Source: Bacteroidaceae bacterium
GTDB lineage: Bacteria; Bacteroidota; Bacteroidia; Bacteroidales; Bacteroidaceae
DNA: 64,000 bases
NCBI GenBank assembly: GCA_017445925.1
Contig: JAFSRW010000049.1
Location: 6,384-70,383, forward strand
Direction of reading: 5' to 3'
Below the pieces are notes generated by a model. The model did not search any database, was not told the origin of the DNA, and saw nothing but the letters and a program-made list of their open reading frames with translations. Made by a program: the position numbers and the translations under genes. Shown here piece by piece: positions 33,419-54,123 of this stretch (position 1 is its first letter; every line of letters begins with the position of its first letter).

Positions 33419-33432
33419 AAAAACAAAAAGAT

Positions 33433-37466: not shown

Positions 37467-38777
37467 TTAAAAACCATCAGCAAACATCTTTTTACCGTTA
37501 ACAACAAATATTCCTTTCTTTTGTTTACCGTTTACCGTTGACGGTTTATGGTTTATACTTGAACTTTTAAACCCTTGAACTCTTCGGCCAGCGAGGTCAT
37601 ACACGGCATCAACTGAATGTTCTATGTTCAATGTTGAATGTTCAATATAAATTGAGCCGATTCCCACACCGCCGTATGGGTTGCCGTTCTCGTCCAACAG
37701 GCGTATTTCCACGATATCAGGCAGATTAATGGGCTCAGCATACCGACGTGCACTGAAGGGAACATAAGGACCTGTGTAAGAGAGATAGCATCGCAGGGGC
37801 AGAATGTAGTCGCCATCAGAGAAACGGACAAACTCTCGCTTGATGTTGTCATCGGGATTTCTGGCCGAGAAACCATAGTCGGTACTCTCATCGGTCCAGA
37901 CCAGTTTCTGGTAAGTACCTCGGAAAGTCCACCCGTTCTTACTGCCCGGATCTACGACTTCGGTCTTCAGCATTACGGGCTGGCCATTAAAGTCAAAGAC
38001 CAATTGCTCATCAGAGGGGAGGAAGAGATATGGCAAGTTAGCCTTCAGCTCATTTACCTTAGTCATGGTAGCAACCCATTTTTCATTCTCCCGAATAACA
38101 TCGGTAAACTTAAAGAACGAGCCACCGGTAAAGTTTGTTGAACTGTTAATGTCAAATGGAAGGATAACAGCTGCATACTGGTTAGGTACGAAATAGCGGT
38201 CATACTCTACGCTGTCTACATCAAACGACTCAGGTATGCTGATTGTTTCCTCGCTGGTGCCATCGAATACAGCTATACGCTTGCCCTCGGAATACTTGAC
38301 AGTGATGCCCGTAAAGGAAGGCAGTGGCGTGAGGTCGAGGACGTATGGCGACTGCGGCGAGCCAAGCACCCCATTGAATGTGTAGGTTATACCACGGTCG
38401 GCCTCTATAATCTCTCCATTTACGAACACCTTGAAGGTAAGATGCTCCCCCGTTTTGTTTCCGTAGACCGTCAGATACGTCACGCCTGGGTTCGTGGAGT
38501 CCTCGGGACGGCCCTTGCCACGTATCTGGTCATCGGCATAAACTGCCACAATGACATCCTGCGTAAGCACCTCCTTGTTTAGCACCGTCTTCACGGATAT
38601 AATCATGCTGCCATAGAAGGTGTTGGGACTGACATCAGGAAAGGGGTCAGTAACCTGAGCCATAAGGCTGGTACTCCCCATGAGAAGGAGAAGAAGACCG
38701 CTCCCAAGAAGACCCATTCCTGCCCCCTCCCGTAAAAGGAGGGGAGGGGATAGCCATTTTATTATTCTACGAATCAT
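37467..38777 (-). CDS. secreted protein of unknown function with T9SS-type C-terminal signal
   Basis: 4-nt ATGA overlap with the giant gene. Hydrophobic leader GLLGSGLLLLLMGSTSLMAQV (the alternative ATG at 38717 would leave the GC element intergenic). C-terminus IEHSTLNIEHSVDAVYDLAGRRV..KKGIFVVNGKKMF. Confidence 0.7.
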   Translation of the reverse strand: MIRRIIKWLSPPLLLREGAGMGLLGSGLLLLLMGSTSLMAQVTDPFPDVSPNTFYGSMIISVKTVLNKEVLTQDVIVAVYADDQIRGKGRPEDSTNPGVTYLTVYGNKTGEHLTFKVFVNGEIIEADRGITYTFNGVLGSPQSPYVLDLTPLPSFTGITVKYSEGKRIAVFDGTSEETISIPESFDVDSVEYDRYFVPNQYAAVILPFDINSSTNFTGGSFFKFTDVIRENEKWVATMTKVNELKANLPYLFLPSDEQLVFDFNGQPVMLKTEVVDPGSKNGWTFRGTYQKLVWTDESTDYGFSARNPDDNIKREFVRFSDGDYILPLRCYLSYTGPYVPFSARRYAEPINLPDIVEIRLLDENGNPYGGVGIGSIYIEHSTLNIEHSVDAVYDLAGRRVQGFKSSSINHKPSTVNGKQKKGIFVVNGKKMFADGF

Positions 38778-41700
38778 TTTACAGCCTTCTTTTGTCCGTT
38801 GATGATGTAAACGCCACTCTTCAGTTGAGAGTTGACAGGTGACAGTTGAGAGTTGACAGGTGACAGTTGAGAGTTATATTTGCGTCCACTGAGGTCATAA
38901 ACTGAATGTTCAATGTTCAATGTTGAATGTTCAATGATTGATGTAGCTTCATCCAAGTCGATGACAAGTGGATTCATAGGTGTTCCGTAGATGCCATCCG
39001 TCTGGAAGTTGACAGTTGTGGTAGCATCAATAACCTGATTGTCGACAACAACCTTGAAGGTGAGCACAGCTTCTTCCTCGCCAGGAATGGTCAGGTAAGC
39101 CATACCCTCCTTATCGGTTATGGTTGCTGTGCGACATTCCTCATCGGCAAAGACGCCCAGTTCCGTATTGGTCAACGGACTTCCTGCTGCTACAATCCTG
39201 ACAGCCATGATGGCATTACCTGAGTAGGCATGACGATCTACAGGCTGGAAGACACCCAGTTTCTCCTGTTGCAGCGCCCTTACATTCTGGCGTGGATAAC
39301 CAAAGTCGCGGTTGGTGCTCACATTCATCACATAACCTAAGCCTGGCTCCATCATTACCAGCGTACCGTTCCACTCGTAGTTATTGAAGTAGGTTACGCC
39401 GCTCTGTCCCTTTACGATGTCGCCGTTCTCTGGATTCATATTTGCCAAGGCATCGGCCACAGAGGCAACATTCCGTCCGTAGTAGCCTACCCAGTTCCAA
39501 CCAGCTTTCAGTTCAATGGGGCATTTTGCAGGATCTACCGGCTCGCCTACAATGTGCAGCTTACCGTTATTCTTCATCTGTACGGCATACATCTGTCCGT
39601 TCTCCAGATCGCCTGTCAGGTTACCCTTCCATGTGCCGTGCTCGTGATACATATATCCGTCCTCGAAACTCTTGATGGCAAGCACATCATCCATCAAATT
39701 ATCGAACAGAGCAGAAACTTTCATATCATCGGCCTTAACGTAGAACGATACCCAGTTCCAACCAGCCTTAAGATTAGTTGACTGCTCTATCTTGTCGAGT
39801 GCGTTGAGCACGACGGGCGTTTCGTACCTGCCTTCCAATAACATTGGGGTAAAGGTGATGGTGCGATCGGGCTGCACGGCAGGATAAAGTGTACCTGTGG
39901 ATGCATCATAGGCGCGGAAGGTTACCTCCTTGTCTGCGTCATCGTCGCCGTAGATATCCATTGTAACAAAGTAGCTGTCGTAACGCTCCATGTAGGCAGG
40001 ATGTGCCACGCCTCTGCATTCGCCATCAATGAATGCTGCCACTATGTCATCCTCGTCGGTTACGGGTACGCCCAGAATCTCCACTCTGCCTATAACGCTC
40101 ATAGAGTTCTCGTAGTCATTGGGATTGATGTTCCAATAAGGAATCTGTCCGGTTACGTTGATGCTGAGTGTCAATGGCGTCTCTATGCCGTTGTTGCCCT
40201 TCAGATATATGGTCTCCTCGTACTTGCCGATGGGTGTGGCAGAACTGATGGTAAAGGTAACCATTGTTTCGTCCAACGGGTTAGTTGTACCATATTCGTC
40301 AGTAGCCGTGAGCCATGAAGGCATTCCCGAAAGTGTCCACATCTGCTGCTGGCCGCTCTTGTTGATAACGGTGGCGGTGACGCTGCTTTCGGTCTTTACC
40401 TGCTTTGTCAGAGTCAGTTCATCCTTGTCCCAAGCCAACTCGTTCCTGTTGACAAAGGCACTCCAGATGGCAGGAACGGAGTAGTTGCCGTTCTCGTCGC
40501 GAACATCTCGAACCGTGAAGTTCAGGGTACAGCCTTCTATGATGGCAGGATCTTCGTCGATGTTGATAACCACCTTCTCGTTGCTGGCCACATAGGTAAA
40601 GCTGACGTTGGTCTCTGTTGGCTTTGTGCGTAAGGCAGGAGCGTTATCTACATAGTTGAGAGTTGAAAGTTGAGAGTTGAGAGTTAAGACTTCTGCCTGA
40701 TGCCCGCTGCCCGTAAGGTCTGTTGCATCGCCGACGGTAACGACCTGATTACCTGAGTCGAGCGTCTTCTTCTCGAAGGGATAGTAAGCTACCAAACCAT
40801 CCTCTGAACCAGTGAGACGTACCTTGCGGTTCTTGCTCAGCAAGTCGGCGTTCAGTGTGGCGTTCCATACGCGTACCTCATCTAATTGTCCCTTGAAGCC
40901 ATGATCGTAAGCGTAGGTGCCGAAGTCCTGAGATACGGTGGTGCGATGAGCACCCAGAATCAGGTTATTGGTGGCGATACTGCCCACGTTTGCTGAGGCT
41001 GTGCTCAAGCAACGCTTACCATCCACATAAACAGCGGCGGCTCCCTGACGCAGCACATTCAGTGCAACGTGATGCCAAACGTTATCTGTAATTGAAAGTT
41101 GAGAGTTGAAAGTTGAGAGTTGAGAGCCGTCTGGGAGATAGGCATCCTTTCCTGTGAGCTGGAGGTTACCCTCGGCAGTGAGGGAGAGTGCTACGTCTCC
41201 CATCTGAAGCAGCTGGGCCTCACCGGTCTGCTCTCCACCACGCATCCAGAACTCCAAGGCATAGTCATCGTCCACACAGGTGGGCAACTCCGAGGTATTG
41301 ATGCTCACGTAGCTTTGTCCGTCCAGGTTGATGGCCTTGTTCTCGTTGTTCAGGTACCACGTCTCTTCTGGCATCGTCATGTGACGGTTGCGAGCGTAGT
41401 CGCGGATGGTAGTGCCCTCACCCTCGTTCATCTTCCAGTAACCTATGAGGTGACGGGTTGAGGGGTTCTTGGTCTTGCTACGGTCGAGTAGGGCGGTGGT
41501 CATATCGTGAGCCTCGTCCCAGAGCAGCAGCTCGTGCATCGCGGTGGTGGTGTTACAGCCTACTTGCACGGGTCCGTTTCCTTCGTAGCTGTCAGCTGCC
41601 TCGTTCTTGAAGAGCGTAGTCTCATTGGCATCGTCGGCCACGGTAGCATTCAGTATTCCATCTGCTGTGAGGCTGAGGCTAAGGAATGCCCACTTACCTG

Positions 41701-44700
41701 TGGGAACCGAGTTCTGGGATGTATAGGTCTTGTTTCCGATGTTCACCAGCAACTTGCCTGCGTCATCAGTTCCTATCGTCAGTTTAATATCGCCGTTGCC
41801 GTGACTCAGTAGCGTACCAGCCCCTTGTGCCAGATTTACCCACATATCAAAGGCGAAGTCCTTGCCTGCCAGGTTTATCTTGGCGTCGGTGGTGGCTGAT
41901 CCGTTGAGGGCGCTCTCGTGGTCAATCTCTGCACCGTTCAGTACGCCGGTGACCTTGAAGTTCGCCTCCTTGGTAAGCTCGCCCTTCAGGATGGTCTCGT
42001 TGAAGGTCACGCTCAACTCGTCACCTATGTCCAGTATGCCGTCAGTGGGTTCCGGAACGCCCATCGGTGTGGGGCGCTGCATGTCCTTAGCCAGCGCTAT
42101 TTCCTCAGACATCCTTGTTACTTCGTCGGTTCCGTAGGTGCTGGCAGAGACAATGCGGAAGAGGTAGTCGCCATCCGACCACGAGCTCATGGGCAGCGTG
42201 TAGCTGACACTGGCTCCCGTGGCGGGTAACAGCTCGTTGCTGGAAGTTTTATCTGCCTCGTTGAGCACATATTCCTTAATCTGTGTCCAGTCTGTAGCCC
42301 CCTGCTTCTTGTACTGCATCCGGAAGGCCTTCAGACCGCGATAGGTGCGGTCGAAGTCCTTCATGGTGAGCACCAGGTCGGTGCCCGTCTGTGTGTTCAT
42401 AGTTGTATTGGATAGGGCCAGCGTTACTGGCGATGATGACGGAACAAAGTGGGCAGAGATGAAAGCCGTGTCGGCAATAACGTCCCACGTGTAAGTCGGA
42501 TAGTACTGCGAAGATGATGCAAACACAATACCTATGCGATCGTAGTCGAGGATGCTCTGGTCGCTCTGCTTCAGAAGCAGCGTCTTGGTAACTGTCTGGT
42601 GCGGCTCAATCAGTATGGTACGTACGTCAGTAACAGGTGCGCCGTCGATGAAGAGCATGGCACCGTTGGGGTTGGTGTCCTCTGCCAAGCCTAAGCGGTA
42701 GTACAGCAACTCTTTGGTCTCCGAGGCGTTGCTCAGGCGCAGTGTGTAAGTGGCGGTGGAGCCAGAAGGAATGTCGGTAACGACGGGAACATCCACGTCA
42801 ATCTGCGGTACCTCTATCTGCATAGTCGGTTCCATAATGGTGGTGCCCGGCTTGTAATACTTGGTGACAACCTTCCCTTCATACGGAGCACTGGTCTGAC
42901 CGCCAAGCGTGCGGAAGATGGGACCATATTCACCATAGTCATACACGTCAACCGTCAAGGCATTGTCGTCGCCTTCTTCTGCGAGGGTGTAATTGAACAC
43001 GGTCTTATCCGTCATGGAGTAGTTGTAGTCGAACTCGAAGCCGGGGGCAACGTCAAAGCCAAGGTTGAGAAGAAAGCCAAAATCATCATTGGCGGTAAAT
43101 CCTGTTAAATAGCTAAAATGGAATCGGATGTTGACGTCGACGTTAAAGTGCATGGCGCTGGAGTATCTCTGTTTCTCGTAGCTCTTGTTCACGGTGCTTC
43201 CAGCGTCGAAGGAGTAGTTCTCGCATTTGACACTGTCCTTGTTATCGCGATTGTTGTTGGCGGAGACTTTCTCTGCTTCGTTAAATCTCAGGTAGCCCTC
43301 CCAGGCTTTGATTTGGTCGTTGCACCAGGCAACGCTGTCTTGGTAGCCGTCCTTCTTAGATGTTTTGGGAACAAACCAGGTATAGGTGCTGTCTTGTCCG
43401 AACATCGGATCGTCGGGAGCAAGTTCGGTAAGATAGACACAGTGGTCACTATTGTTGACATATTCGTTGATGGTTGCCTTGTCGACCGTCTTCAACATGG
43501 AGTTGCGCATCAGTTCCAGGTTTGGCATCAGCATATTCTCGATATAATTCTGCGTGTAGCTGAACATGGTGCTGAACTCCATTCCCGTGGAGATGCTCTC
43601 CTTGACGTCAAGAGTCACTTCGTTGCTGCTGCCCACGCGGTGGAATCCGACGTTATTGGCTGCACCGATAATGACGTTGGTGGCCGTGCCGACGAAGATG
43701 TCACCGGGGGCACCGTCGTACTCGATGTCGTCACTGGTACTGATGGTTTTGGTATTCTCAATGGTAGTGGAATAGGTGCGGTCACCGTGGAAGTCTACAC
43801 GTCCATCGAGCCCTAATTCAATATCATGTTTTGAAGACGTATTGGTGACGAGATAAACCGTAAGACCTTCAGCCGATTTTATATTAAGGCCCAATTTGAT
43901 AGTTCCCGTAGCGAAGGCACCAGCGCTTAAGGTGCCGGCGTAATTGTACACTTCGTTCTTGATTGTACCAGAAGCCCATTCTGCCTTAGACTTGGAGCCA
44001 GGAGGGTCGCGGAGGATCATTTGCAACATATCGGGACCGGCTGTGACGAAGTTGTTGCCAGTTGGCATGTCACCCAGCACGATACCAGTGATGCCTCCAT
44101 CGTTCCATACATAGGTGCGGTCATCGATGTCATAGCTAATGGCAATGGTACGGGTATAGGGTGAGGCGATGTTAGGCAGACCTGCCATCCATTTGTAGCA
44201 GGCGCAGCCGAGGCTGTCAAGGCGCAACTGGTTGCTCTTGAGCTGTACGACCTCACCGGCAGAATAGCTGACGCTGTCGACGGTGGTCTCCTCGCCGGCT
44301 ACAGCCTGTTCAGCGGACAGTGCATTGTCGATGGTTACAACCAAACCCTGCAATGGCACCCGGAAGTTGACTGGCTGCTTGGCATCGCTGTTAACGTACT
44401 CCTCGTAGGCTTTGATGTTAAAGGTGTAGTTATCGTACATCTCGAATACTGCGCCACCGTATTTATATTCGGGCTTGCCGTTGTCGCCTATCCGATAGAT
44501 GTCATTAATCTTTAGCTCACCTTGCTCATCCTTCAGCGTGTAGCTGCTGATACCGAAGGCACCGTCATCATGGTTTGCGTCTGTGACGAGGAAGGTTGGC
44601 GTACTGTGGTAGGTCTGCATCAGCTTGGTGTGGTAGGAGTAGGATTCTTCGGGGCTGCTTTCCTGGCGCAGGGTATCGCCGCGAACCATCAGGGGGTTGG

Positions 44701-47700
44701 AGAGGTCGATGGTGGTGGACTCGCCTACCTCCAGTCCCGTCTTTACCACCTTCATGCTGGCAATCTTATACTCCAACGGGGGCAGCATGGCAGAGAACTC
44801 GCCGGTCAGGGAGTCGGTGCGGATAAAGATCTTGCGGCAATCGTCAGCGCCTGCTCCACGCCATGATTTACTGGCAATCTTGTTGCTGGCAGAGGAGATG
44901 CCTACCGTGTCGGGGTTCGTCTCGTAGCTGTAGGTGGTTTCTGTGACCTCCTTCACTACGTTCATGCGCGGAATCTCGTTCAGAGGGGTGAGGATAAGCT
45001 CGGTAATGCCGATGTTGTTCTGGCTCAGCCCGAAGCCCAAGTCTTTCTTGCCCTCGATGTCGCCGCCAACGACGCGGCCAGTGAAGTTGACCATCGTGGA
45101 ATCGTAGAACTCGAGGTTCTTGATTTCGCGGTCGAAGGTGTGCTTCACGCCCACGTTGTTCGGGTCGACGGGATAGCGACCGCCGTCGGTGAAGACGTGG
45201 CCGTTCTTCTCCACCGTAATAAAGTGGTCGCCAATGGGTACACTGATGGTGAACTCGCCCTGCTCGTTGGTCTCAACGATTTTACCGTCCTTAGAGCAAA
45301 TGATGCCATCGACGTAGAGGTAGGCACCTTCCAGTGGATAGTCTGTGCCGGCGTAGAATACCTTGCCGCTGACGGGGAACGAGGAGACATCGTTGAAGTC
45401 CACGCCGCTGTGGGTAAGCGAAGACATGCTGACGAAGCGCGACTGCTGTGCGGGCTGGAACTCGTGGATGCCCAGGGTGGGAATGACGCTGTAGCTGGTT
45501 CCTTCGCCCGAGAAGGGTACGCCACGAACCTCGTAGTAGCCGTCTGTGTCGGTATAAGACATCAGGCTCATCATATCCTCGTCGGGCAGTTTGGTGGAGC
45601 TGTTGGCGGGAACCAGCGTGTTGGCGTGTCTGCCGTTGCTGATGCCATTTTTCTTGGAGAAGTCGTAGGCTACGCCTTGCTTTGCCAAGCCCTCGTCGAA
45701 GGGATAGTAGATGGCCAGTCCCGATTCGCTGCCCGAAAGCGGGTGGTTGTAGTTGCGCTCTATATCCTTCTTGGTCAGTGCCTTGGTCCAGAAGCGGAAC
45801 TCATCCATGTAGCCGTTGTAATACATTTCTCCCTGGAGGGAGGCTTCGTTACCGATGCTAATGCACTTGTCGTCGTCCCTGATGGTGGGGGAGACGGCTA
45901 AGGGGCTTTGATTAACATAGACTATACCACCCTCTACTCCATCTGCACCTATGGTATAGATGCCAGTTTGATGGTTGCTGGAATTATGAATACAGGCAAC
46001 GTGTGTCCAACTGTCCGCAGCTATAAAGTATGATGTATCATAGTTTATACCGCCTACATATACCCCTAATTTGTACTTCTTTTTGGTATTATCGTAGCGC
46101 ATATACAGCGTGAAGGCCTTGTACACATCGAACAGCAGGTAGCGAGAGTTATGATCTGCCATGATGGTGGTGTCGGGGTTGATGTACATCTGGATGGAGA
46201 AGTCGCCGGCGAAGAGTTTGCGCAACTCCTCAGGACTGCTGTCGTACTTGAAGCCTGCCCCGAAGCCTGACATCTTCACCGAGCGCAGACCGCTGGCAAT
46301 GTCGCCGTCGGCATTCTGCTGCTTCAGCATTACCTTGGCTCCCTCCACGGCGGTGCCGGTTCCGTAGGCAATGTTGCCGCTGATGATACCCGTGGCTACG
46401 CTGAAGCCGTCGGTGGTTTGCATGTCCGATATGGACTGCTCCTGGCCGTCCTGCGTCCAGAGCACAATCTTGTAGTCATTGAAGCTGCCAGGCAGGGCCG
46501 TCACGTCGTCGTAGCTGTAGGTGGCCTGCGTGCCTGAGGTGGTGTATATGCTCATCCAGTCGTCCTCTTCTTCGCTGCTGCCCAAGGGACGGCGGTAGAT
46601 GATAAAGTTAGATGTTGTGGCGCCCACCTGGTCCACCGTCCACGAGAGCTTCACCATGTTGCTGTAGTTGCCGCGCGAGGCTGTGAAGTCTGTAATCTTG
46701 GAGCCGCCCAACTTGGCGGAAACCACCTCGCTCAACTGGTCTTTTTTGAAGATGTTTACCTTTAGGCGGTAATTATAAGAGGTATTGGACTCCAGGTTGT
46801 TGCCGGCATCGGTGTAGCTGCCTGAGATGGTATCCTTGTTCTCGATGCTGATTTTGGCTATGTTCTCCCAATTCAACTGGTCTGAGTTTTTGGAGCGCTG
46901 TATATATAATGTATAGGGGTTGCTGCCCGATGCATCCTCAATGGCCTGATGGCTCCACTTCAGGCTGATGCCCTCTGGGACTTCTTTTGCCGTAACCGCT
47001 CCGAAGGACCACGTGGGCACAATGGAGGCTCCGATGGTCTGGCTCAGCCCCTCTGCAATATCCCTTGGATCTTTGGGGACGAAGCTGACTTGTATCTCTT
47101 CCTCCCTGTTGTATTCGCCTAATGTTATATTCCTGCTGGTTTTGTCTTGGGAGAGGCCGGTGGCCAGGTCTTTATCGGTTGTGTTGTTCCTGATGGTCCA
47201 CGTTCCCGCCTTGCTGAGCTTATTGCCGTCCGCGTCCTTCTCCAAAGGATTCCAGCTGATAGTACACTCCTTATTCCATTGGTTAAAGGTCTCCGCTTTT
47301 AATCCCGTCGGGCGGGTGAAGCCTGGCACGGGCACCGTAACCCAGTTGTAAACGATGCATTTCTGTAATATTTTGTGCTTGTTCGCAAAGTCTTTAATCT
47401 CTATCGTGGCGCTGTATTGCACGGGCAGCGAATCCACGTCGGTATAAGTGGTGCGTATCATATTGCCGGAGAGGTCGCTGAATTTTGTGGTGCTACTGCC
47501 GTATTTCTTTGAACAAGCGAACATTCTCTGGTCCTCCAAATACTCCGAGGGTGCTTTTGCCGATTGCGTGTAAGCGCCAACGGTGGTGCCGAGGGAATCA
47601 GGCAGAGTGCCGCTCAGGCTCACTTCCTCATAGCCGGACATGCTGGCGGTCGGCTTCTCCCATGGGTCTTTAAGGACCTTGGTAGTCCAGGTCATCTCCT

Positions 47701-48235: not shown

Positions 48236-48332
48236 GTTTTCTTGAATTAAGAATTAAGAGAGAAGAAAGAAGAATTAAACTCTTGAACTCTTCGTTTTTC
48301 TGCCCCAAAATAAATAAAACCTTATGGAATAA

Positions 48333-48386
48333 GGTGTAAAAAAACTGCACTTGGTGTAAAAAAAACAAGCATTAGGTGTGAAAAAA
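48333..48386 (-). promoter_or_regulatory. three direct GGTGTRAAAAAA boxes upstream of the giant gene (candidate operator)
   Basis: Boxes start at 48333, 48353 and 48375 (spacing 20 and 22 bp), 98-150 nt upstream of the ATG at 48235. A homologous two-box copy lies at 51370-51401. Confidence 0.4.
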
Positions 48387-48410
48387 CCGCGGTTTTTTCA
48401 CACCTAATGC
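48369..48410 (-). terminator. intrinsic terminator after the arylsulfotransferase-like gene (perfect 42-bp palindrome)
   Basis: GCATTAGGTGTGAAAAAACCG/CGGTTTTTTCACACCTAATGC forms perfect 21-nt arms. On the minus strand it is followed by TTGTTTTTTTT. Begins 20 nt after the stop at 48430. Confidence 0.7.
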
Positions 48411-48429
48411 CTCTTGTTGCTTCACAATA

Positions 48430-49878
48430 TTAATATTTCACGCAGCGATAGGAGGGATTAACGGAGTTGGGAAGGCTGTCTTCAGCACTGCGACGCAGAC
48501 CGAAGATTTCCCGCCCGCTGGCATCGTGCTCTGTGACCAGGCGGGTATTGTTTCCCCCTTCCGTGCTCCAGCCCCAGCCCACGGTGAGGCGCTCGCCAAA
48601 GAGTTGCACGGCGCCGCAGGCCTGTGAGAAGTAGTCGCCGCCCGGGTTCAGCAAATTGCCGCCGCCGGTCACCTTGCCGGTCTGCTCGTTCACCTGGAGA
48701 CGGAGTACGCGAGTGAGCTGCGGGCTGTGGCCGTTGCCGTTGTCGAAGAGCGTCAGCGTGCCGTCGGCGTTCAGCGTGGCGTAGTGCTGTCCGCAGAAGT
48801 TCTGTTCCTCAGGCAGGGCCTCGCCGCTGATGCGCCACAGGATGTCGCCCGTTTCGCCTGCGCGGTCAATCTTCACAATGGAAGAGAGGTGGCGGAAGGA
48901 GCAGAGCCAGTTGCCGTCGGGCAGCACCTGGATGGCGTTGAAGTGAACGTAGTCATAACTGGTGTCGAAGGTGGGGCTTTCCCAGTCCTCCATTTCGGGA
49001 TGGTCGCTGCTCCACCAGTCGAAGACCACCTCGCCGTCCTGTACTTCCTGAAGGTACGCTACCGCCAGTTTCCGTTCACCCACCTGACGGTCGATGTATG
49101 CCGAGAGGATGTAGTGAGTGGGTGAGAAGAAGTAGAAGTCGTGCCCGTCGATGGGCTCGCCGTCAGGCAGATAGCCGTCCAGACTAGCAAGGGCGTGGAT
49201 GGTGTCGATGGGCGTGTAGTGCTCGTCCAGCAGGATGCGCATGCCGGGGTTGTAGCCGGTAAAGGCGCGGCTGCTGTAGGCATAGTCGGGCGCGTGGTAG
49301 CTGTAATAGGTACGACCATCCAGCGTGTGCTTCTTGAAGTCCCAAAAGCCTTGCTCATTGAAGTTGCCGGCCTTCTCCGTCGGGTCGTACCGGTAGTAGA
49401 GGATGTGCCCGTCGTTGTTGTACTTCATGACGAGGCGCTGGTAGATGAACGACAGGTAGAAGTCGCCCGGGATGACACCCTTGCCCGTGGCTTCGATGAC
49501 GGGGATGCCGGTGTGCAGCGTGTTCAACTGCACGGTACCGCTCTGGTCGCCGGTGGTGTAGGTGATGGAGATTTGCTTGTCCTTGGCAATCTCGCCTATT
49601 GCGAGTGTGCATTTGCCGCTACGGGCATCGGTGCCGCCTACGCTGAGTTGCTGAAAGTCGGATGCATTGCTGATGCCGATGTCCGCCGCTGCCTCGGTGC
49701 TCAGCGTCCTGAGGTTTATTGCTTCCTTGGCGGGCAGCGCTATGCGGTACTGCTCGCCGTTGACGGTGAGGCACAGTTCCGTGGCAGGCACTTCGGTGTT
49801 AATGTCATCCGAGCAGGCTGTCAATCCCGCTAATGCCAGCATTGCCGCTATGCCTTGGTAGAACTTTCTCTGTTTCAT
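48430..49878 (-). CDS. arylsulfotransferase (ASST)-like beta-propeller lipoprotein
   Basis: Lipobox MKQRKFYQGIAAMLALAGLTACS (ATG 49878). C-terminal half resembles the ASST family (HDFYFFSPTHYILSAY, DYVHFNAIQVLPDGNWLCSFRHLSSIVKIDR, LFDNGNGH). Family assignment is from memory only. Confidence 0.55.
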   Translation of the reverse strand: MKQRKFYQGIAAMLALAGLTACSDDINTEVPATELCLTVNGEQYRIALPAKEAINLRTLSTEAAADIGISNASDFQQLSVGGTDARSGKCTLAIGEIAKDKQISITYTTGDQSGTVQLNTLHTGIPVIEATGKGVIPGDFYLSFIYQRLVMKYNNDGHILYYRYDPTEKAGNFNEQGFWDFKKHTLDGRTYYSYHAPDYAYSSRAFTGYNPGMRILLDEHYTPIDTIHALASLDGYLPDGEPIDGHDFYFFSPTHYILSAYIDRQVGERKLAVAYLQEVQDGEVVFDWWSSDHPEMEDWESPTFDTSYDYVHFNAIQVLPDGNWLCSFRHLSSIVKIDRAGETGDILWRISGEALPEEQNFCGQHYATLNADGTLTLFDNGNGHSPQLTRVLRLQVNEQTGKVTGGGNLLNPGGDYFSQACGAVQLFGERLTVGWGWSTEGGNNTRLVTEHDASGREIFGLRRSAEDSLPNSVNPSYRCVKY

Positions 49879-49885
49879 GTTTGAA

Positions 49886-49932
49886 CCCTCCCCCATCCCC
49901 CTCCCTCTATGGAGGGGAGCTGGAGGTATGGG
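49886..49932 (-). repeat. family B GC-rich hairpin element (inverted orientation)
   Basis: CCCTCCCCCATCCCCCTCCCTCTATGGAGGGGAGCTGGAGG. The reverse complement reads CTCCCCTCC-ATAGA-GGGAGGGGG-AT-GGGGGAGGG. Confidence 0.85.
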
Positions 49933-49967
49933 ATTTTGTCTATTTGTTATTAATCATATTATTATCA

Positions 49968-50027
49968 AGCCAAGAGCCAACAGCCAAAGTATTTAACTCC
50001 TTTAACTTCCTTAACTTCTTTAACTCC
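49968..50027. repeat. short-period arrays (AGCCAAG/AGCCAAC, then TTAACTYC-type 8-10-nt units) after the C1 peptidase stop
   Basis: Read directly. The minus (sense) strand carries repeated TAA triplets. Confidence 0.8.
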
Positions 50028-51185
50028 TCATAGTTCTTTCCTGAGCTTCTTCGGCAGGGCGTGGCGGTTAAGGAAGATGTAGGTGGTGTTCAGCGCCATG
50101 TAGTCGCGCGACATGTACCAGATGCCTGCGTAGTTTCCCATTATGCCCCAAGTATTCTTGACCATGTAGAAGGGACGGCCCGACTGGTCGGTAGCCTTGC
50201 CGTAGATGAGCATCACGTGGTCGTAGGTGAAGCGCCAGTCGTCCCACTGCTCCTGACGGAGCTGCTGCGTGGGCTGCACGCCGCTGGGCAACTCTGCCAA
50301 GCCCGTGCGGGTGAAGTCGCCCGATACATCGCCGCCCCATGCCACGGTGTAGCCCGCATCGATGGCATCGTCGATGACCTGCATCAACTCCTCGATGGGG
50401 ATGTTATAGCTGGGTTTGAGGCGCCACTTGTAGGGAGCCTCTATCACAAACCACTCACGGAAAGGGTGGTGCGTGTAGCTGGTGAGGCTTATGTAGTCGT
50501 CGAGGTTCAGACCCAAGCTCTGGGCAAACGTCTGCGGGGTGTAGTTCTTGCCCTGATAGGTGAAGGACTGGGGACAGCGGCCCAGGTTGCGGTCGAGGAC
50601 TGCCTGCACGCTGTCCTGCCAGAAGGCTCGGGGTGCGGCGCCGTGGGTAGTAGCGACTGTCTGGGCTTTGGCAAGGTCGGCGGCGACAGAATCGTCGGGA
50701 ACGATGGTGCGGCGTACGGTGGCCTCGAACTCAGGGTAGAACCGCGTGAAGTTGGCGAGCGAGTCACCCACTAAGGAGCCGGGGGCCGCCATGGCGTCCT
50801 CGGGGCAGATGCCGTAGCGGCGGATGACGTCCACCACGTCGTCGCACGAGCCGCCCTGGGAGATTTGGCTGAAGCCGTGCATACGGACGAAGTGCGTGGC
50901 GTTCTCCATGTAGTCCTTATTTACCACGAACATCTCGCAGAGGTCGTATGTGCGACCCGTCTGCCTGAGTATCTCGCTCTCGATGTATCCCAGCGTTCCG
51001 TAGGCCCAGCATGTGCCGCTTCGCCACTGGTTCTTGATGCTGGTGATGGGCAGTTCCTTCACGGTGGTGAATGTCTTCTGTTCCTTCGAGGCTTGCGCCT
51101 GGCGTTGCAAGTTCTCCTGTGCCGTCGTCGTCAAAGCAGAGGCGCTACACAAGGCAACTGCTATCGATGTAAGAATCTTCTTCAT
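50028..51185 (-). CDS. C1 (papain) family cysteine peptidase, aminopeptidase C-like
   Basis: Signal peptide MKKILTSIAVALCSASALTTTAQ (ATG 51185). Catalytic Cys context NQWRSGTCWAYGTLGY. His/Asn region YDHVMLIYG..YMVKNTWG. Confidence 0.7.
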   Translation of the reverse strand: MKKILTSIAVALCSASALTTTAQENLQRQAQASKEQKTFTTVKELPITSIKNQWRSGTCWAYGTLGYIESEILRQTGRTYDLCEMFVVNKDYMENATHFVRMHGFSQISQGGSCDDVVDVIRRYGICPEDAMAAPGSLVGDSLANFTRFYPEFEATVRRTIVPDDSVAADLAKAQTVATTHGAAPRAFWQDSVQAVLDRNLGRCPQSFTYQGKNYTPQTFAQSLGLNLDDYISLTSYTHHPFREWFVIEAPYKWRLKPSYNIPIEELMQVIDDAIDAGYTVAWGGDVSGDFTRTGLAELPSGVQPTQQLRQEQWDDWRFTYDHVMLIYGKATDQSGRPFYMVKNTWGIMGNYAGIWYMSRDYMALNTTYIFLNRHALPKKLRKEL

Positions 51186-51369
51186 ATCCGGTTTGTTATT
51201 TTTTCTTTCTGTTGTTCCATACAAAGTAAATGATGTAAGCAATCAGCCCCAGGTAGACAACTACCAGGGGAATGGTGAACCAGAGCGGTTGCGAAAGGAA
51301 GTCTTGTAAGTTCTTGCTCATGATAATTTTGTTTTCTGGTTACAAAATACGGAAATAATCATGAAAAAA

Positions 51370-51417
51370 GGTGTATAAAAACTACACTTGGTGTAAAAAA
51401 ACCGCGGTTTTTTCACA
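51370..51417 (-). promoter_or_regulatory. second copy of the GGTGTRAAAAAA box element with CCGCGG-centred palindrome, in the peptidase/AraC divergent region
   Basis: GGTGTATAAAAACTACACTTGGTGTAAAAAAACCGCGGTTTTTTCACA aligns with 48333-48403 minus a 22-nt unit. No upstream gene ends here, so it is not explained as a terminator. Confidence 0.4.
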
Positions 51418-51467
51418 TTTCCCCCTTAGGAAACGACATATTTACATTATTTTTGACGTTCTGTCAT

Positions 51468-51504
51468 TAACTTTCAACTTTCAATTTTCAATTTTCAATT
51501 AATT
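51468..51504. repeat. family A heptamer array (TTCAACT/TTCAATT) upstream of the AraC gene
   Basis: TAACTTTCAACTTTCAATTTTCAATTTTCAATTAATT read directly. Confidence 0.9.
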
Positions 51505-51520
51505 ATCGTACCTTAGCGGC

Positions 51521-52657
51521 ATGATTACCATTGGAGAGATGCAAATAAGCGGCATGCTGACAATGCTGATGCTATCGGTAATGCTAATGCTTTGTGTACC
51601 CCATCGCTCGAAGCGCAGAAGCAGTTTTGCCCGCGCCAGATGGTTAATGGCGGTAGGCACTGGACTGATAAGCCTTCAGTTTCTGCTACAGTACATCTTC
51701 GGATTCCGCCAGATGGGCGTTACGCAGGCCGTGTTCTGCAACCTGCTGCTGTTTACGCCCGCCTCGCTGCTCTGCGGCATGTCAATCCTGTACGTACAGC
51801 GCCAGGGAATCATCCGCAGGAAGGAATGGATGGTGGCGTGTGGCATCTGCGCGGCATCGATGCTGATACTCTTAGGCACCATCTCGCTGGATGGCATCCC
51901 GTTCCGGCAAGGCTCGCCGGCGATGCGGATAGCCGAATACGTGGTGGCGCTGCTCTACGTGGTGATGCAGACCTACATCTTTATCATGCAATACAAGGCG
52001 TACATTCAAGTGAAGATGGCTGTGCGCGAGTACTTCGACCGCGAACGCCACGACCTCTTCGGCTGGATGGGCCTGAGCATGCGAGTCATGGCGATGTTAG
52101 CTTTCTTTGTGCCGCTGGTAATCTTTACGGAAGGCAAGGCTCTTGTGCTATTCTCCATCGCCTACTTCTTCTGCATTGCCTACAGCACCATCAGCCTGTA
52201 CACCTACGGCGTGAGCGAGAACATCATCCGCGTGGAGGAGGCGGAAGAAGACCCCCTCCCTGCTCCCCCTTTGGGTGAGTGCTCCCAAGCAGAGAACGAC
52301 AATAAAGTCTCACCCAAAGGGGGAGATTCAGAGGGGGCCTTTATCTCTGCTTCACTTGAAAGCTGGATTTCCGACGGCTACTACCGTCAGCATAACCTGA
52401 CGCTGAGCGTGGTAGCAAAACAGATGAAACTGACGCGTAGGCAACTGCAGGAGTGGCTCCGGCAGTCGGAATACAAGAATCTGGCGGGATTGGTGACTCA
52501 GCTGCGCATAGAGGAGGCCAAGCGTGTGCTGAAGGAGAAACCGGAATGGTCGGTGGAAACAATTGCGGACTACTGCGGATTCAGCAGCCGCGAGTACTTC
52601 CATCGTTCCTTCCGCGAATACACAGGCATGACGCCCGCTAAGTTCCAGAATAGCTAA
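51521..52657 (+). CDS. membrane-anchored AraC-family transcriptional regulator
   Basis: N-terminal ~230 aa has about 6 hydrophobic segments. C-terminal AraC HTH LSVVAKQMKLTRRQLQEWL..IEEAKRVLKE..ETIADYCGFSSREYFHRSFREYTGMTPAKFQ. A 90-nt GC-rich insert lies in the linker. Confidence 0.8.
   Translation: MITIGEMQISGMLTMLMLSVMLMLCVPHRSKRRSSFARARWLMAVGTGLISLQFLLQYIFGFRQMGVTQAVFCNLLLFTPASLLCGMSILYVQRQGIIRRKEWMVACGICAASMLILLGTISLDGIPFRQGSPAMRIAEYVVALLYVVMQTYIFIMQYKAYIQVKMAVREYFDRERHDLFGWMGLSMRVMAMLAFFVPLVIFTEGKALVLFSIAYFFCIAYSTISLYTYGVSENIIRVEEAEEDPLPAPPLGECSQAENDNKVSPKGGDSEGAFISASLESWISDGYYRQHNLTLSVVAKQMKLTRRQLQEWLRQSEYKNLAGLVTQLRIEEAKRVLKEKPEWSVETIADYCGFSSREYFHRSFREYTGMTPAKFQNS
52250..52339 (+). 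mobile_element. MITE-like 90-nt element inserted in frame in the AraC linker
   Basis: 30/31-nt terminal inverted repeats: GACCCCCTCCCTGCTCCCCCTTTGGGTGAG (52250-52279) and CTCACCCAAAGGGGGAGATTCAGAGGGGGCC (52309-52339). The inner 17 nt are identical. Total length 90 nt = 30 codons. A 28/30-identical solo arm lies at 19361-19390 in GH78. Confidence 0.6.
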
Positions 52658-54123
52658 AAAACCACCTTCTTGCCATTGGTTAAGTAAATGCCCTTCTTAG
52701 TTAATGCATTTACCTTACGGCCGCTGAGGTCATAGGACTTATGAGTCTTATGGGTCTCATGGGGCTTATGAGCCTTATCAATCCCATCCTCCAGATCCTG
52801 CGTTCTGGGAATGCCAAAATAAGCATCCATCTCGAGGAAGCGATCGACGTACCACTGCTCTATGAAGGAAATTTCACGGGCAAGGTCCTGAACATACTTG
52901 GGGCGTGACCTCTCCTTGTCGTAGTGGTCGGTCATACGCTGCCAGGCACCGCTTTTAATAAAGAGGTCACGGTATTTCTCAAGTTTGCTGAAAACGGCAG
53001 GAATGGAGAAGGCGCCTTGGCGGCCCTCGATCCATCGCTGCTTGAGGATCTTATTGTATTCAGCATCATTAACGATGGGCGAAATAGGGAAGGGCGCATT
53101 ATTGGAAAGAACATTCACAGGCCATTCGGTATAATTGCCGTCATAATACGCGCCATCAAAACTGCCGCCGAAGCTGGTGTCCAAATCCCAGGGGGTTATG
53201 ACGAACCTGCGGCGGTCCGCCTCGGTGGGGTCGGCGTCGTTGATGTTTTTGGTGATGTTTCGTACACTAAGGAACCTGTTCTTGTTGCCCCAGTTGTCAG
53301 CAATGCAGAGTGCCATGATAAGGAGGTGGTAATCGGCCAGATTCTCTAAGAAGAAGTACTTCTTGACGTATTCTTTGCTATGGCCGTTCAGGATGGCATC
53401 CTGCAAGGGTTTCCACGCCTGCTGACCTCCATATTCATCGGGATATTTGAGTTCCCAGGCATCGTGCCAGGCAATGACGCAAGCTGAGGAGTCCTCGCTA
53501 TAACCCGGATTGTTCTGATTGAGAATGTCCTGCGTGCCACTCTTGTACAGCGCTCCGCGGATAACCACACTGCCATCCTCATTCTCTTGCACCTTCTTTA
53601 AATTAAGCAACTTGCGGTTAATGCGGTCCATGAGGTGGTAGATGCCGAAGTACTTGTCGTTGATATAAAATTCCACGAAGCGACCTTCAGAGCCGTTTCG
53701 ACCGCCGAACTGTGTATCATAGGGAAGGTGAGAGAACTCGTTCCAAACATCGAAAGCTACGCGGTTACGCATACAGATGCGGTCGATGGCCATGGCATCC
53801 AGAATCCACGACGAGCAGGAACGCATACCCAATAGTGCAGAGTCTGCCTCCTCGGTGTAATCCGGAGTACGTAACTTCATGTTCAGAGAGGGTTTATACA
53901 AATACTGTCTGGCTGTGGCACCGCGCGTCCTGAACTTGGCAGGAAGCTTCACCAAACTACCATCAGTTTCGGTTAGCGTCATGGTGCCGTTAACATACGG
54001 CATATCTGCCGTTATATCCCCTTCGAAATAAACTTTCATGATGGGAAGCTTGTCTGTTTCGGCTCCGAAAGAAACAAGATTCAGAAGCCCAGAGAGAAGC
54101 AGGAAACAGATAAGTTTTCTCAT
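52654..54123 (-). CDS. CotH-family (kinase-like) secreted protein with T9SS-type C-terminal signal
   Basis: CotH-like segments SWILDAMAIDRICMRNRVAFDVWNEF, GRFVEFYINDKYFGIYHLMDRI and ITPWDLDTSFGGS. C-terminus YDLSGRKVNALTKKGIYLTNGKKVVF. Signal peptide present. Confidence 0.6.
   Translation of the reverse strand: MRKLICFLLLSGLLNLVSFGAETDKLPIMKVYFEGDITADMPYVNGTMTLTETDGSLVKLPAKFRTRGATARQYLYKPSLNMKLRTPDYTEEADSALLGMRSCSSWILDAMAIDRICMRNRVAFDVWNEFSHLPYDTQFGGRNGSEGRFVEFYINDKYFGIYHLMDRINRKLLNLKKVQENEDGSVVIRGALYKSGTQDILNQNNPGYSEDSSACVIAWHDAWELKYPDEYGGQQAWKPLQDAILNGHSKEYVKKYFFLENLADYHLLIMALCIADNWGNKNRFLSVRNITKNINDADPTEADRRRFVITPWDLDTSFGGSFDGAYYDGNYTEWPVNVLSNNAPFPISPIVNDAEYNKILKQRWIEGRQGAFSIPAVFSKLEKYRDLFIKSGAWQRMTDHYDKERSRPKYVQDLAREISFIEQWYVDRFLEMDAYFGIPRTQDLEDGIDKAHKPHETHKTHKSYDLSGRKVNALTKKGIYLTNGKKVVF
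52737..52779. repeat. period-9 in-frame repeat (CTTATGAGT-type) encoding HKPHETHKTHK
   Basis: GACTTATGAGTCTTATGGGTCTCATGGGGCTTATGAGCCTTAT read directly, just upstream of the CotH C-terminal signal. Confidence 0.85.

What the first reader, a model, noticed from the sequence alone, without database searches (positions are those of the whole stretch)
37467..54123. Candidate surface-protein locus: a 3153-aa LamG-rich T9SS protein with a coupled partner, an ASST-like lipoprotein, a C1 peptidase, a membrane AraC regulator and a CotH-like T9SS protein
- The 9.46-kb ORF has a signal peptide, Fn3-like and CarboxypepD_reg-like modules and at least three LamG_3-type modules. It also has long stretches, including the N-terminal ~300 aa and roughly aa 1150-2150, in which I recognise no family.
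- It overlaps by ATGA with a 436-aa protein bearing the same atypical C-terminal signal, which suggests co-translation and co-secretion.
- Immediately upstream on the same strand are an arylsulfotransferase-like lipoprotein and a papain-family peptidase.
- A regulator with about 6 TM segments fused to an AraC HTH is divergent from the peptidase, and a CotH-kinase-like T9SS protein is convergent with the regulator.
- The combination is not a canonical PUL (no SusC/D), fimbrial or toxin locus that I recognise. It could be an adhesion, host-modification or contact-dependent system.
Basis: inference. Interest (0 to 1): 0.7.

Follow-up and report, generated by a model that had tools for sequence, protein, structure and literature searches.

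The report
Regulated giant Prevotella surface-protein operon
The genes are real, but they are not a six-gene system: the conserved unit is a membrane-bound AraC regulator, its repeat-type promoter, an uncharacterised ~3150-residue secreted surface protein and a small partner, a module widespread in gut and rumen Prevotella relatives with no known function.

Summary
All six ORFs and their domain assignments are confirmed. The 3153-aa protein is intact and identical to a hypothetical protein of a Bacteroidaceae (Prevotella-group) MAG.

The six-gene-locus reading fails on synteny:
- The closest relative with context (78% identity) has AraC, giant and partner but no peptidase or ASST.
- Another relative (65%) has a sulfatase and a radical-SAM enzyme in that slot.
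- ASST homologues elsewhere sit alone among housekeeping genes.
- CotH follows FtsH-CdsA and is absent from the module in other genomic contexts.

What recurs:
- An AraC-HTH regulator lies within 1.5 kb upstream of 27 of 65 giants (2.3 expected).
- An operator of three ~21-bp-spaced direct repeats plus a TAnnTTTG box was found in 13 loci. It is present twice in this window.
- A small transmembrane ORF is often present.
- The giant follows.
- In 29 of 64 loci there is a partner, usually overlapping by 4 nt. Its N-terminal domain copies a C-terminal domain of the giant.

The "atypical" tail matches the short T9SS signal described in Prevotella intermedia. About two thirds of the giant has no Pfam or PDB relative. 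This includes a ~430-aa module of very long β-hairpins found only in this architecture (1837 clusters). Function is inferred: a regulated, T9SS-anchored lectin-like surface megaprotein.

The parts
51521..52657 (+). Membrane-embedded AraC-family regulator: about 7 hydrophobic segments followed by a C-terminal HTH_18. It is divergent from promoter P1.
   Evidence: Pfam HTH_18 1.3e-17. Hydrophobic segments. Orthologues and analogues lie next to giants in L003-L007, L083 and L084. Enrichment is 27 of 65 against 2.3 expected.
51322..51425 (-). Operator/promoter P1: an inverted half-site, two direct TTTTTWYACACC boxes 20 nt apart and a TAnnTTTG-like box. It lies upstream of the small ORF, the peptidase and the ASST gene.
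   Evidence: 6 boxes in the window against 0.07 expected, all at P1 or P2. The alignment shows that P1 lacks exactly one 22-nt unit.
51196..51321 (-). 41-aa single-pass transmembrane ORF (MSKNLQDFLSQPLWFTIPLVVVYLGLIAYIIYFVWNNRKKK). It is the first gene after P1.
   Evidence: Read. Conserved at protein level in L004, L083 and L064. Analogous small transmembrane ORFs occur in L061, L084, L009 and L026.
50028..51185 (-). Secreted papain-family (C1, aminopeptidase-C-like) peptidase. It is a lineage-specific insert in the regulated slot.
   Evidence: Pfam Peptidase_C1_2 3e-16. Signal peptide and GTCW motif. Absent from L083 and L004. Not recurrent among 126 upstream neighbours.
48430..49896 (-). 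ASST-like (arylsulfotransferase-fold) lipoprotein. It is a lineage-specific insert in the regulated slot.
   Evidence: Pfam Arylsulfotran_2 7e-17. Lipobox. Homologues at 62-71% identity stand alone elsewhere.
48354..48425 (-). 36-nt-arm palindrome after the ASST stop, followed by a T run. It looks like a terminator and overlaps the inverted half-site of P2.
   Evidence: Inverted repeat I1; sequence.
48290..48412 (-). Operator/promoter P2: an inverted half-site, three direct TTTTTTYACACC boxes at 22- and 20-nt spacing and a near-consensus -7 box. It lies directly upstream of the giant gene.
   Evidence: The same two-promoter layout is present in L083.
38774..48235 (-). 3153-aa giant protein. 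Order of parts: signal peptide, unknown N-terminal domain, 3 Fn3-like modules, CarboxypepD_reg with an inserted LamG, β-sandwich array, long-β-hairpin module, Ig-like modules, 2 LamG, Ig-like modules, two partner-like domains flanking GWNW domains, short T9SS CTD.
42806..44128 (-). Central module of the giant (aa 1370-1810). It carries the invariant LRDPPG, two sheets of ~40-residue β-hairpins and two long helices.
   Evidence: AF2 model with pLDDT 72.7 and pTM 0.63. Only weak secretin-like Foldseek hits, TM 0.08-0.13. The profile finds 1837 clusters, and the top 150 almost all have the same architecture.
40844..41323 (-). Best-scoring LamG (Laminin_G_3) module, aa 2305-2464. By reading, two more lie at about aa 655-830 and 2085-2250.
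38777..38950 (-). C-terminal T9SS sorting signal of the giant (aa ~3096-3153). It is of the short-CTD type, with loops lengthened by heptamer-repeat-coded sequence.
   Evidence: TIGR04183 22.6 bits against a cutoff of 23. [quoted passage not shown]
37467..38777 (-). 436-aa partner. Its N-terminal ~105-aa domain is homologous to aa 2996-3100 of the giant. It also has a family-specific middle domain and a short-CTD-like tail.
   Evidence: BLASTP 4e-10 for the domain and 8e-11 for the tail. Family alignment. A partner-type ORF lies downstream of 29 of 64 giants.

Best explanation
The conserved unit is a regulator-operator-cargo module, not a six-gene system.

Proposed mechanism
1. A one-component regulator, with about 6-7 transmembrane helices and a cytoplasmic AraC-type HTH, senses an unknown envelope or environmental cue. 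[inferred]
2. It binds an array of three ~12-nt boxes spaced about 21 bp apart, just upstream of a Bacteroidota-type TAnnTTTG promoter element. [The array is shown. Binding is inferred from adjacency, and from repeat sequences that differ between loci with different regulators.]
3. In this window the array is present twice. [shown]
   - P1 drives a 41-aa transmembrane peptide and two strain-specific passenger genes: a secreted C1 peptidase and an ASST-like lipoprotein.
   - P2 drives the 3153-aa protein and its overlapping partner.
4. The giant is exported by Sec and then by the type IX secretion system through a short-type C-terminal signal, and is probably anchored on the cell surface. [inferred from sequence motifs]
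5. On the surface it displays three LamG lectin-like modules on a long string of β-sandwich domains, interrupted by a unique long-β-hairpin module. Its most likely role is regulated binding of a glycan or a surface, that is adhesion or substrate capture. [inferred]
6. The partner is made in step with the giant. Through the domain it shares with the giant's C-terminus it probably attaches to the giant. In relatives the other end of the partner is either the same secretion/anchor signal or a dockerin. [inferred]

CotH is a bystander that belongs to the neighbouring FtsH-CdsA-CotH run.
For: Family
- More than 120 full-length homologues of 3130-3500 aa at 44-86% identity, with many invariant residues along the whole length.
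- At least 391 loci in species-representative genomes of Prevotella, Segatella copri, Hallella, Alloprevotella, Muribaculaceae and Paludibacteraceae.

Regulator link
- An AraC-HTH ORF lies within 1.5 kb upstream of 27 of 65 giants: 16 of the membrane type and 11 of a long TPR type.
- The expected number is 2.3, binomial P 3e-22.
- HTH_18 is the only recurrent family among 126 upstream ORFs.

Operator
- The box TTTTTWYACACC occurs 6 times in the window, only at the two promoters, against 0.07 expected.
- The same array is found in L004 and L083.
- Arrays with different repeat sequence but the same ~21-nt period and a following TAnnTTTG are found in L005, L019, L020, L061, L064 and L084, and in L006, L016 and L034.

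Partner
- Domain homology to the giant.
- Present downstream of 29 of 64 giants, 18 with a 4-nt overlap.
- Dockerin variants exist.

Secretion signal
- TIGR04183 at 22.6 bits against a cutoff of 23.
- Two homologues carry a canonical PF18962 tail at the same position.
- Motif match to the short CTDs that support cleavage and glycosylation of cargo in Prevotella intermedia (PMC11969387).

Passenger status of the enzymes.
Against: - No experiment of any kind: binding of the regulator to the repeats, secretion, anchoring and ligand are all inferred.
- 38 of 65 giants have no AraC gene within 1.5 kb, and 35 of 64 have no partner, so neither is obligatory.
- For same-strand membrane-type regulators my repeat finder found no triple array.
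- The tails of the partner and of CotH reach no T9SS HMM.
- T9SS machinery genes could not be checked, because only 64 kb of the genome is available.
- Conservation along the whole length, and the fixed size, are unusual for a simple adhesin.
- The central hairpin module is unexplained by a lectin or adhesin role.
- The loci are not phylogenetically independent, so the P value overstates significance.
Confidence: 0.55

Rival explanations
1. All six genes (CotH, AraC, C1 peptidase, ASST, giant, partner) form one dedicated adhesion or host-modification system.
For: - Physical adjacency in this window.
- CotH, the giant and the partner end in similar YDLxGR...KGIY..NGKK tails.
- A CotH gene also lies near the giant in L001.
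- The peptidase and ASST genes share the operator with the giant.
Against: - L083 (78% identity) has no peptidase and no ASST.
- L004 has a sulfatase and a radical-SAM enzyme instead.
- L084, L005, L003 and L007 have the module without CotH.
- Only HTH_18 recurs among 126 upstream ORFs.
- ASST homologues stand alone elsewhere.
- CotH starts 4 nt after CdsA, on the FtsH-CdsA strand.
Confidence: 0.07
2. The giant is not an adhesin but an oligomeric machine. The central long-β-hairpin module would assemble into a large β-barrel (secretin-like or pore-forming-toxin-like) on the cell surface or in a target membrane. The LamG modules would act as targeting domains and the partner as an assembly or cap subunit.
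For: - AF2 predicts two sheets of ~40-residue β-hairpins plus two long helices, with low-confidence, poorly conserved hairpin tips.
- The top Foldseek hits are all secretins (BfpB, InvG, GspD, PilQ, pIV), with E 4e-5 to 1e-2.
- Fixed length and strong conservation over 3150 aa suggest a machine.
- An invariant LRDPPG contains an Asp-Pro bond of the kind cleaved in some self-processing proteins (own knowledge, untested).
Against: - TM-scores are only 0.08-0.13 with rmsd above 25 Å, so this is a local resemblance in shape, not a fold match.
- No Secretin, MACPF or aerolysin Pfam hit in 15 members and no PDB sequence hit.
- Monomer AF2 models of long hairpins are unreliable.
- No toxin or immunity genes recur nearby.
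Confidence: 0.12
3. The module is a nutrient-capture device for sulfated or host-derived glycans or glycoproteins. The giant would bind the polymer, and the variable slot between regulator and giant would carry the matching enzymes.
For: - The slot holds sulfate-ester-related enzymes in two lineages: ASST-like here, and sulfatase plus radical-SAM maturase in L004.
- It also holds a secreted peptidase here.
- LamG modules are lectin-like.
- A glycoside-hydrolase cluster (GH78, GH95, GH20, GH2) lies 6-20 kb away.
Against: - Most loci have an empty slot.
- No SusC/SusD pair adjoins the module.
- Two lineages are too few to establish a theme.
- ASST-fold proteins are not proven sulfotransferases.
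Confidence: 0.15

Closest known systems
T9SS cargo with short C-terminal domains (Prevotella intermedia; Ye et al. 2025, PMC11969387)
   Same: [quoted passage not shown]
- There is an N-terminal Sec signal.
- Two family members carry the canonical long CTD in the same place.
   Different: - The spacings between motifs are intermediate between the short and long classes.
- In this window they are further lengthened by heptamer-repeat-coded inserts.
- The HMM score lies just under the curated cutoff.
- Secretion has not been shown.
Giant T9SS-secreted surface adhesins of Bacteroidota such as SprB and RemA of Flavobacterium johnsoniae (own knowledge)
   Same: - Very large, β-rich, multi-domain cell-surface proteins exported by T9SS.
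- Lectin-like modules.
- Small co-encoded partner proteins.
   Different: - No detectable sequence relationship.
- This family is not repetitive. It has a fixed length and strong conservation throughout.
- It has a unique central hairpin module.
- It occurs in non-gliding gut anaerobes and has a dedicated AraC regulator.
AraC/XylS activators that bind tandem direct repeats next to the promoter (for example RhaS, MelR, XylS; own knowledge)
   Same: - A C-terminal double HTH (HTH_18).
- Direct-repeat boxes with a period of about 21 bp, placed just upstream of the core promoter.
- The regulator is divergent from, or immediately upstream of, its target operon.
   Different: - The sensor part is a ~280-aa polytopic membrane domain, or in other loci a TPR plus one transmembrane segment, instead of a soluble cupin.
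- The promoter is of the Bacteroidota -7 TAnnTTTG type.
- There are three boxes plus an inverted half-site.
Secretins (GspD, InvG, PilQ, pIV)
   Same: Long antiparallel β-hairpins combined with helices. They are the best Foldseek matches of the central module.
   Different: - TM-scores of 0.08-0.13.
- No Secretin Pfam domain.
- The module is embedded in the middle of a 3150-aa secreted protein.
- This is a resemblance only, not membership.
Cohesin-dockerin assemblies
   Same: Short partner variants in relatives (L001, L006, L010, L051, L054) end in a type I dockerin. This suggests that the partner bridges the giant to other proteins.
   Different: - The partner in this window has no dockerin.
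- No cohesin was identified.
- The shared ~105-aa domain matches no known family.

Membership tests
T9SS cargo protein (type A / short CTD) | C-terminal sorting domain recognised by TIGR04183 or PF18962 | tested here: inconclusive
   - Giant: TIGR04183 22.6 bits against a cutoff of 23; PF18962 16.7 against 27.
- 2 of 15 homologues pass PF18962.
- Partner and CotH: no hit.
T9SS cargo protein (type A / short CTD) | Cleavage motif (PT/GI), motif B (Y..G plus a basic residue), motif D (GxY-I), motif E (C-terminal basic residues) | tested here: met
   - Family tails compared with the definitions in PMC11969387.
- Window giant: ATSI...VYDLSGRK...SGVYII.NGQKKAVK.
- The partner and CotH carry motifs B, D and E by eye.
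T9SS cargo protein (type A / short CTD) | N-terminal Sec signal peptide | tested here: met
   MKRLLLLLALLCTFAGSAQA/DT, read. No predictor was run.
T9SS cargo protein (type A / short CTD) | T9SS machinery (SprA, PorV, PorU and others) in the same genome, and secretion dependent on it | not testable with these tools
   Only a 64-kb window is available and there are no experiments.
LamG / concanavalin-A-like lectin superfamily | Laminin_G_3 domain above Pfam's gathering score | tested here: met
   118.7 bits against 27.6, in 3 stretches. The PDB profile search hits 4qvs, 4dqa and 5hon.
AraC/XylS transcription factor | C-terminal HTH_18 / HTH_AraC domain above the gathering score | tested here: met
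   HTH_18 64.3 bits against 33.6; HTH_AraC 43.6 against 26.6.
AraC/XylS transcription factor | Soluble N-terminal ligand-binding or dimerisation domain (cupin type) | tested here: not met
   No Pfam hit in aa 1-285. About 7 hydrophobic segments are found instead.
Polysaccharide utilisation locus (PUL) | Adjacent SusC-like and SusD-like pair | tested here: not met
   None among the locus genes. Not recurrent next to giants.
Secretin | Secretin domain (Pfam) or a fold match with a meaningful TM-score | tested here: not met
   No Pfam hit. Foldseek TM 0.08-0.13 and rmsd above 25 Å.
Papain-family (C1) peptidase | Peptidase_C1_2 above the gathering score and catalytic Cys, His and Asn motifs | tested here: met
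   59.6 bits against 22. The motifs GTCWAYG, YDHVML and KNTWG are seen (by eye).
Arylsulfate sulfotransferase (ASST) | Arylsulfotran_2 / Arylsulfotrans domain above the gathering score | tested here: met
   62.2 bits against 27 and 45.3 against 24.2, but covering only aa 284-462. Catalytic residues and activity were not tested.
CotH kinase family | CotH domain above the gathering score | tested here: met
   103.8 bits against 23.8.
Anti-phage defence systems | Any PADLOC model hit | tested here: not met
   0 hits for all six proteins.

The most novel reading that the evidence does not exclude
The giant family could be a previously unrecognised class of T9SS-exported surface machine. Its unique ~430-aa long-β-hairpin module, with the invariant LRDPPG, would oligomerise into a large secretin-like or pore-type β-barrel, possibly after self-cleavage at the Asp-Pro bond. 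The LamG modules would provide targeting and the domain-sharing partner would act as an assembly subunit. The whole device would be switched on by a dedicated membrane-embedded AraC sensor.
Probability: 0.1. Interest if true: 0.85.

Novelty: new variant of a known kind. Interest (0 to 1): 0.55.

Why it matters
Prevotella and Segatella are among the most abundant gut and rumen bacteria, yet most of their surface biology is unknown.

- This module encodes one of their largest proteins. It is conserved over its whole ~3150 residues in hundreds of species, often in several copies per genome, and about two thirds of it matches nothing known.
- The module comes with a dedicated regulator and a clearly readable operator. 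That makes it experimentally tractable through reporter fusions, regulator deletion and DNA-binding assays.
- Working out its signal and ligand could reveal how these bacteria attach to food particles, mucus or other cells.
- The variable slot behind the first promoter may be a general way of placing new secreted enzymes under the same control.

Tried and rejected
- NCBIfam on the whole proteins gave nothing for the giant, partner, ASST, peptidase or CotH.
- A PDB profile search with the 52-sequence family alignment found only LamG hits. The partner profile against the PDB and Pfam gave nothing significant.
- Foldseek of the 1070-aa model returned only generic β-sandwich arrays (alpha-2-macroglobulin, complement) at TM about 0.1. 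I rejected these as uninformative. No thioester motif was seen.
- Foldseek of the central module against viral structures gave nothing credible.
- PADLOC gave no hits.
- I considered and rejected a PUL (no SusC/D), a fimbrial locus, and a toxin-immunity system (no recurrent neighbours).
- I considered the heptamer-coded peptide stretches as insertions into the giant. The two internal ones occupy variable loops without any length change relative to homologues, so I did not pursue them as mobile inserts.
- Literature searches found no description of this family or of membrane AraC regulators tied to T9SS cargo. The library is limited, so this is not proof of absence.


Full report
**1. Observation**

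- The 3153-aa ORF has three Laminin_G_3 stretches (E 3e-34) and a weak CarboxypepD_reg hit.
- Its neighbours are an Arylsulfotran_2 protein with a lipobox, a Peptidase_C1_2 protein with a signal peptide, a protein with about 7 hydrophobic segments followed by HTH_18, and a CotH protein.
- The giant and the 436-aa ORF overlap by ATGA.

Three details need correcting.
- The peptidase most likely starts at ATG 51185.
- A 41-aa transmembrane ORF (51196-51321, minus strand) lies just upstream of the peptidase.
- NCBI's annotation starts the partner at M21, downstream of a GC-rich hairpin that sits inside the 5' end of the long ORF.

The giant is identical to a hypothetical protein of a Bacteroidaceae (GTDB sense, Prevotella-group) MAG.

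The flanks are housekeeping genes. HflX and fumarate hydratase lie on one side. FtsH and CdsA lie on the other, with CotH starting 4 nt after CdsA on the same strand.

**2. The giant belongs to a large, uniform, uncharacterised family**

- A protein search returned more than 120 full-length homologues of 3130-3500 aa at 44-86% identity, all covering 97-100% of the query.
- A 52-sequence alignment has 49% mean column identity and invariant residues along the entire length. These include an LRDPPG motif at aa 1408-1413.
- A scan of one genome per species found at least 391 loci. They occur in Prevotella, Segatella copri, Hallella, Prevotellamassilia, Alloprevotella, Muribaculaceae and Paludibacteraceae, often with several copies per genome and sometimes in tandem.
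- So the gene is not fragmented in relatives.
- Pfam on 15 diverse members finds only LamG (15 of 15), CarboxypepD_reg (15 of 15), a weak Fn3-like model (10 of 15) and Por_Secre_tail (2 of 15).
- A family profile against all PDB sequences finds only LamG domains.

**3. Structure of the unknown centre**

- AlphaFold2 on aa 1016-2085 (pLDDT 73) gives a string of β-sandwich domains around an unusual module. Foldseek on this model returns only generic multi-Ig arrays at TM about 0.1.
- Modelled alone, the module (aa 1370-1810) reaches pLDDT 72.7 and pTM 0.63. It consists of two sheets of ~40-residue β-hairpins and two long helices.
- Its best PDB matches are all secretins (BfpB, InvG, GspD, PilQ, pIV). 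However, TM-scores are 0.08-0.13 and rmsd exceeds 25 Å. This is a resemblance of shape, not a fold assignment.
- The viral library gave nothing.
- A profile of the module, searched against 1.84 billion representatives, finds 1837 clusters (670 at E <= 1e-30). Nearly all of the top 150 are 3100-3500-aa proteins with the module at the same position.
- The module is therefore specific to this architecture.

**4. The C-terminal signal**

- The last 110 residues of the giant score 22.6 bits on TIGR04183 against a cutoff of 23.
- The family consensus is TGI-x12-YDLxGRK-x9-KGVYIxNGQKxxVK.
[quoted passage not shown] Those domains were shown to support cleavage and glycosylation of cargo in Prevotella intermedia (PMC11969387).
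- Two homologues carry a canonical Por_Secre_tail at the same place, which supports the assignment.
- In this window the loops between motifs are lengthened by peptide stretches (IEHSTLNIEHS, NSQLSPVNSQLSPVNSQL) encoded by period-7 DNA repeats.
- The partner and CotH carry motifs B, D and E by eye but reach no HMM.

**5. The partner**

- Residues 46-155 of the partner are homologous to aa 2996-3100 of the giant (30% identity, E 4e-10), and more weakly to aa 2682-2773. The tails also match.
- Partners in other loci share this N-terminal domain but differ downstream. Some have a ~200-aa domain plus a CTD-like tail. Short forms end in a type I dockerin.
- Of 64 giants with enough downstream sequence, 29 are followed directly by such an ORF, and 18 of these overlap by 4 nt.
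- The partner family has no Pfam or PDB relative.

**6. Synteny test of the six-gene idea**

- L083, the closest relative with context (78% identity), has FtsH-CdsA-CotH, then the divergent AraC gene, then the 41-aa ORF, the giant and the partner. It has no peptidase and no ASST.
- L004 (65%) has the same frame but carries a sulfatase and a radical-SAM enzyme in that slot.
- L084 and L005 (61-62%) have AraC, a small or medium membrane ORF, the giant and the partner in unrelated chromosomal contexts without CotH.
- L003 and L007 (44-45%) have AraC immediately upstream on the same strand.
- L001 and L002 have no AraC nearby.
- Among 126 ORFs taken from the 4.5 kb upstream of giants, HTH_18 occurs 26 times and every other family 3 times or fewer.
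- Among 122 downstream ORFs only Dockerin_1 (5, the short partners) stands out.
- ASST-like homologues at 62-71% identity sit alone among housekeeping genes.
- Conclusion: the peptidase and ASST genes are lineage-specific passengers, and CotH is a chromosomal neighbour.

**7. The regulator and its operator**

Regulator association:
- An AraC-HTH ORF lies within 1.5 kb upstream of 27 of 65 evaluable giants.
- Sixteen are of the 355-395-aa polytopic membrane type and eleven are of a 570-655-aa TPR type.
- From the density of such ORFs in the rest of the fetched flanks, 2.3 would be expected (binomial P 3e-22; the loci are not independent).

Operator in this window:
- The 12-nt box TTTTTWYACACC occurs six times against 0.07 expected, and only in two places.
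- P2 is upstream of the giant (48333-48404): three direct boxes 20-22 nt apart plus an inverted half-site.
- P1 is upstream of the 41-aa ORF (51370-51401).

Comparison with relatives:
- Alignment with L083 and L004 shows one conserved element followed by a TAnnTTTG-like box. P1 of the window lacks exactly one 22-nt unit.
- L083 has the same two-promoter layout with nothing but the small ORF and a hairpin between the promoters. The duplication therefore predates insertion of the enzymes.
- Loci with more distant regulators have three or four direct repeats of different sequence at the same ~21-nt period. Examples are GAATAGATACACC, GATTACACAC, TTTTGGACAC and AATAGAGACAC. For the long-type regulators the repeat is GAATTCGTCT. 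Each array is followed by TAnnTTTG.
- Repeat sequences that change together with the adjacent regulator are what a cognate operator would show.
- For same-strand membrane-type regulators my strict repeat finder found nothing.

**8. Interpretation**

The best-supported picture is a regulator-operator-cargo module. A membrane-embedded AraC-type sensor activates, through a triple direct-repeat operator, an operon for a small transmembrane peptide, optional secreted enzymes, a T9SS-exported megaprotein rich in LamG modules, and a domain-sharing partner.
- Shown: the anatomy, the conservation and the associations.
- Inferred: DNA binding, export, surface anchoring, giant-partner contact and ligand binding.

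Two observations keep a more exotic reading open (an oligomeric barrel-forming machine, about 0.1 probability): the uniform size and conservation of the giant, and the unexplained hairpin module. A nutrient-capture reading for sulfated polymers rests on only two lineages: ASST here, and sulfatase plus maturase in L004.

**9. Novelty and score**

- The individual ingredients are known kinds: T9SS cargo, LamG, AraC activators with direct repeats.
- I found no description of the family, its central module, the partner or the regulator-operator pairing.
- I rate it a new variant of a known kind, with interest 0.55.
The core it noticed is real, widespread and experimentally approachable.

Noticed in passing
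Whole window, e.g. 3495-3529, 5391-5565, 15566-15778, 21272-21374, 33358-33422, 34286-34330, 38822-38941, 40654-40689, 41092-41126, 51472-51500, 60451-60538: Imperfect period-7 tandem arrays (units such as AGTTGAG, TTGAAAG, AATGTTC, CATTGAG, AAGAGTC; 21-nt super-period) are scattered through intergenic regions, gene ends and coding sequence. Inside the giant and the partner they encode stretches such as SQLSTFNSQLS, LNSQLSTLN, NSQLSPVNSQLSPVNSQL and IEHSTLNIEHS, at positions that vary within the family. Their origin and role are unexplained.
   Followed up: partly
window 7766-7785, 38725-38744, 49898-49917: GC-rich hairpins of the form CCCCTCC-N6-GGAGGGG occur 5 times against 0.11 expected. 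One lies inside the first 20 codons of the long partner ORF (encoding SPPLLLREGAG), which may be why NCBI starts that gene at M21. Another lies just upstream of the ASST gene.
   Followed up: partly
window 51196-51321 (-); L004 6879-7004; L083 9624-9749; L064 1764-1892: A conserved 41-42-aa single-pass membrane ORF (..QDFLSQPLWFTIPL..) is the first gene after the operator. Other loci have unrelated small transmembrane ORFs (L061, L084, L009, L026), or a ~260-300-aa membrane protein resembling the regulator's membrane domain (L005, L019, L076), in the same position.
   Followed up: partly
window 49968-50039: The 131-nt spacer between the peptidase and ASST genes contains 9/18-nt and 7-nt tandem repeats, such as GAGTTAAAG and AGCCAAC. 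It could be a scar of the insertion or a regulatory element.
   Followed up: no
window 52738-52778 (inside CotH, just before its tail): A 9-nt tandem repeat (4.6 copies) encodes HKPHETHKTHK immediately upstream of the CTD-like motif of CotH.
   Followed up: no
window 17599-31147: A cluster of glycan-degrading genes: GH78 rhamnosidase, GH95 fucosidase, a GDSL/esterase fusion, GH20 hexosaminidase and a GH2 enzyme. A GxGYxYP/F5_F8 protein lies at 61317-63557. This cluster is unrelated to the module by synteny.
   Followed up: partly
L006, L010, L025, L029, L031, L034, L038, L045, L054, L070, L077: Two giant paralogues lie in tandem or within a few kb on the same contig. In some cases one AraC gene precedes the pair, or one lies between the two.
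   Followed up: no
L083 21853-28381: In the closest relative, a WYL protein and a Cas12a (Cpf1)-Cas1-Cas2 locus follow the giant-partner pair, where this window has fumarate hydratase.
   Followed up: no
L005 20886-27867; L019 20269-23295: In the two loci with the ~260-aa membrane ORF, the partner is followed by further large ORFs of 1000 and 1325 aa (one with a weak Calx-beta hit). This may be an extended version of the operon.
   Followed up: no
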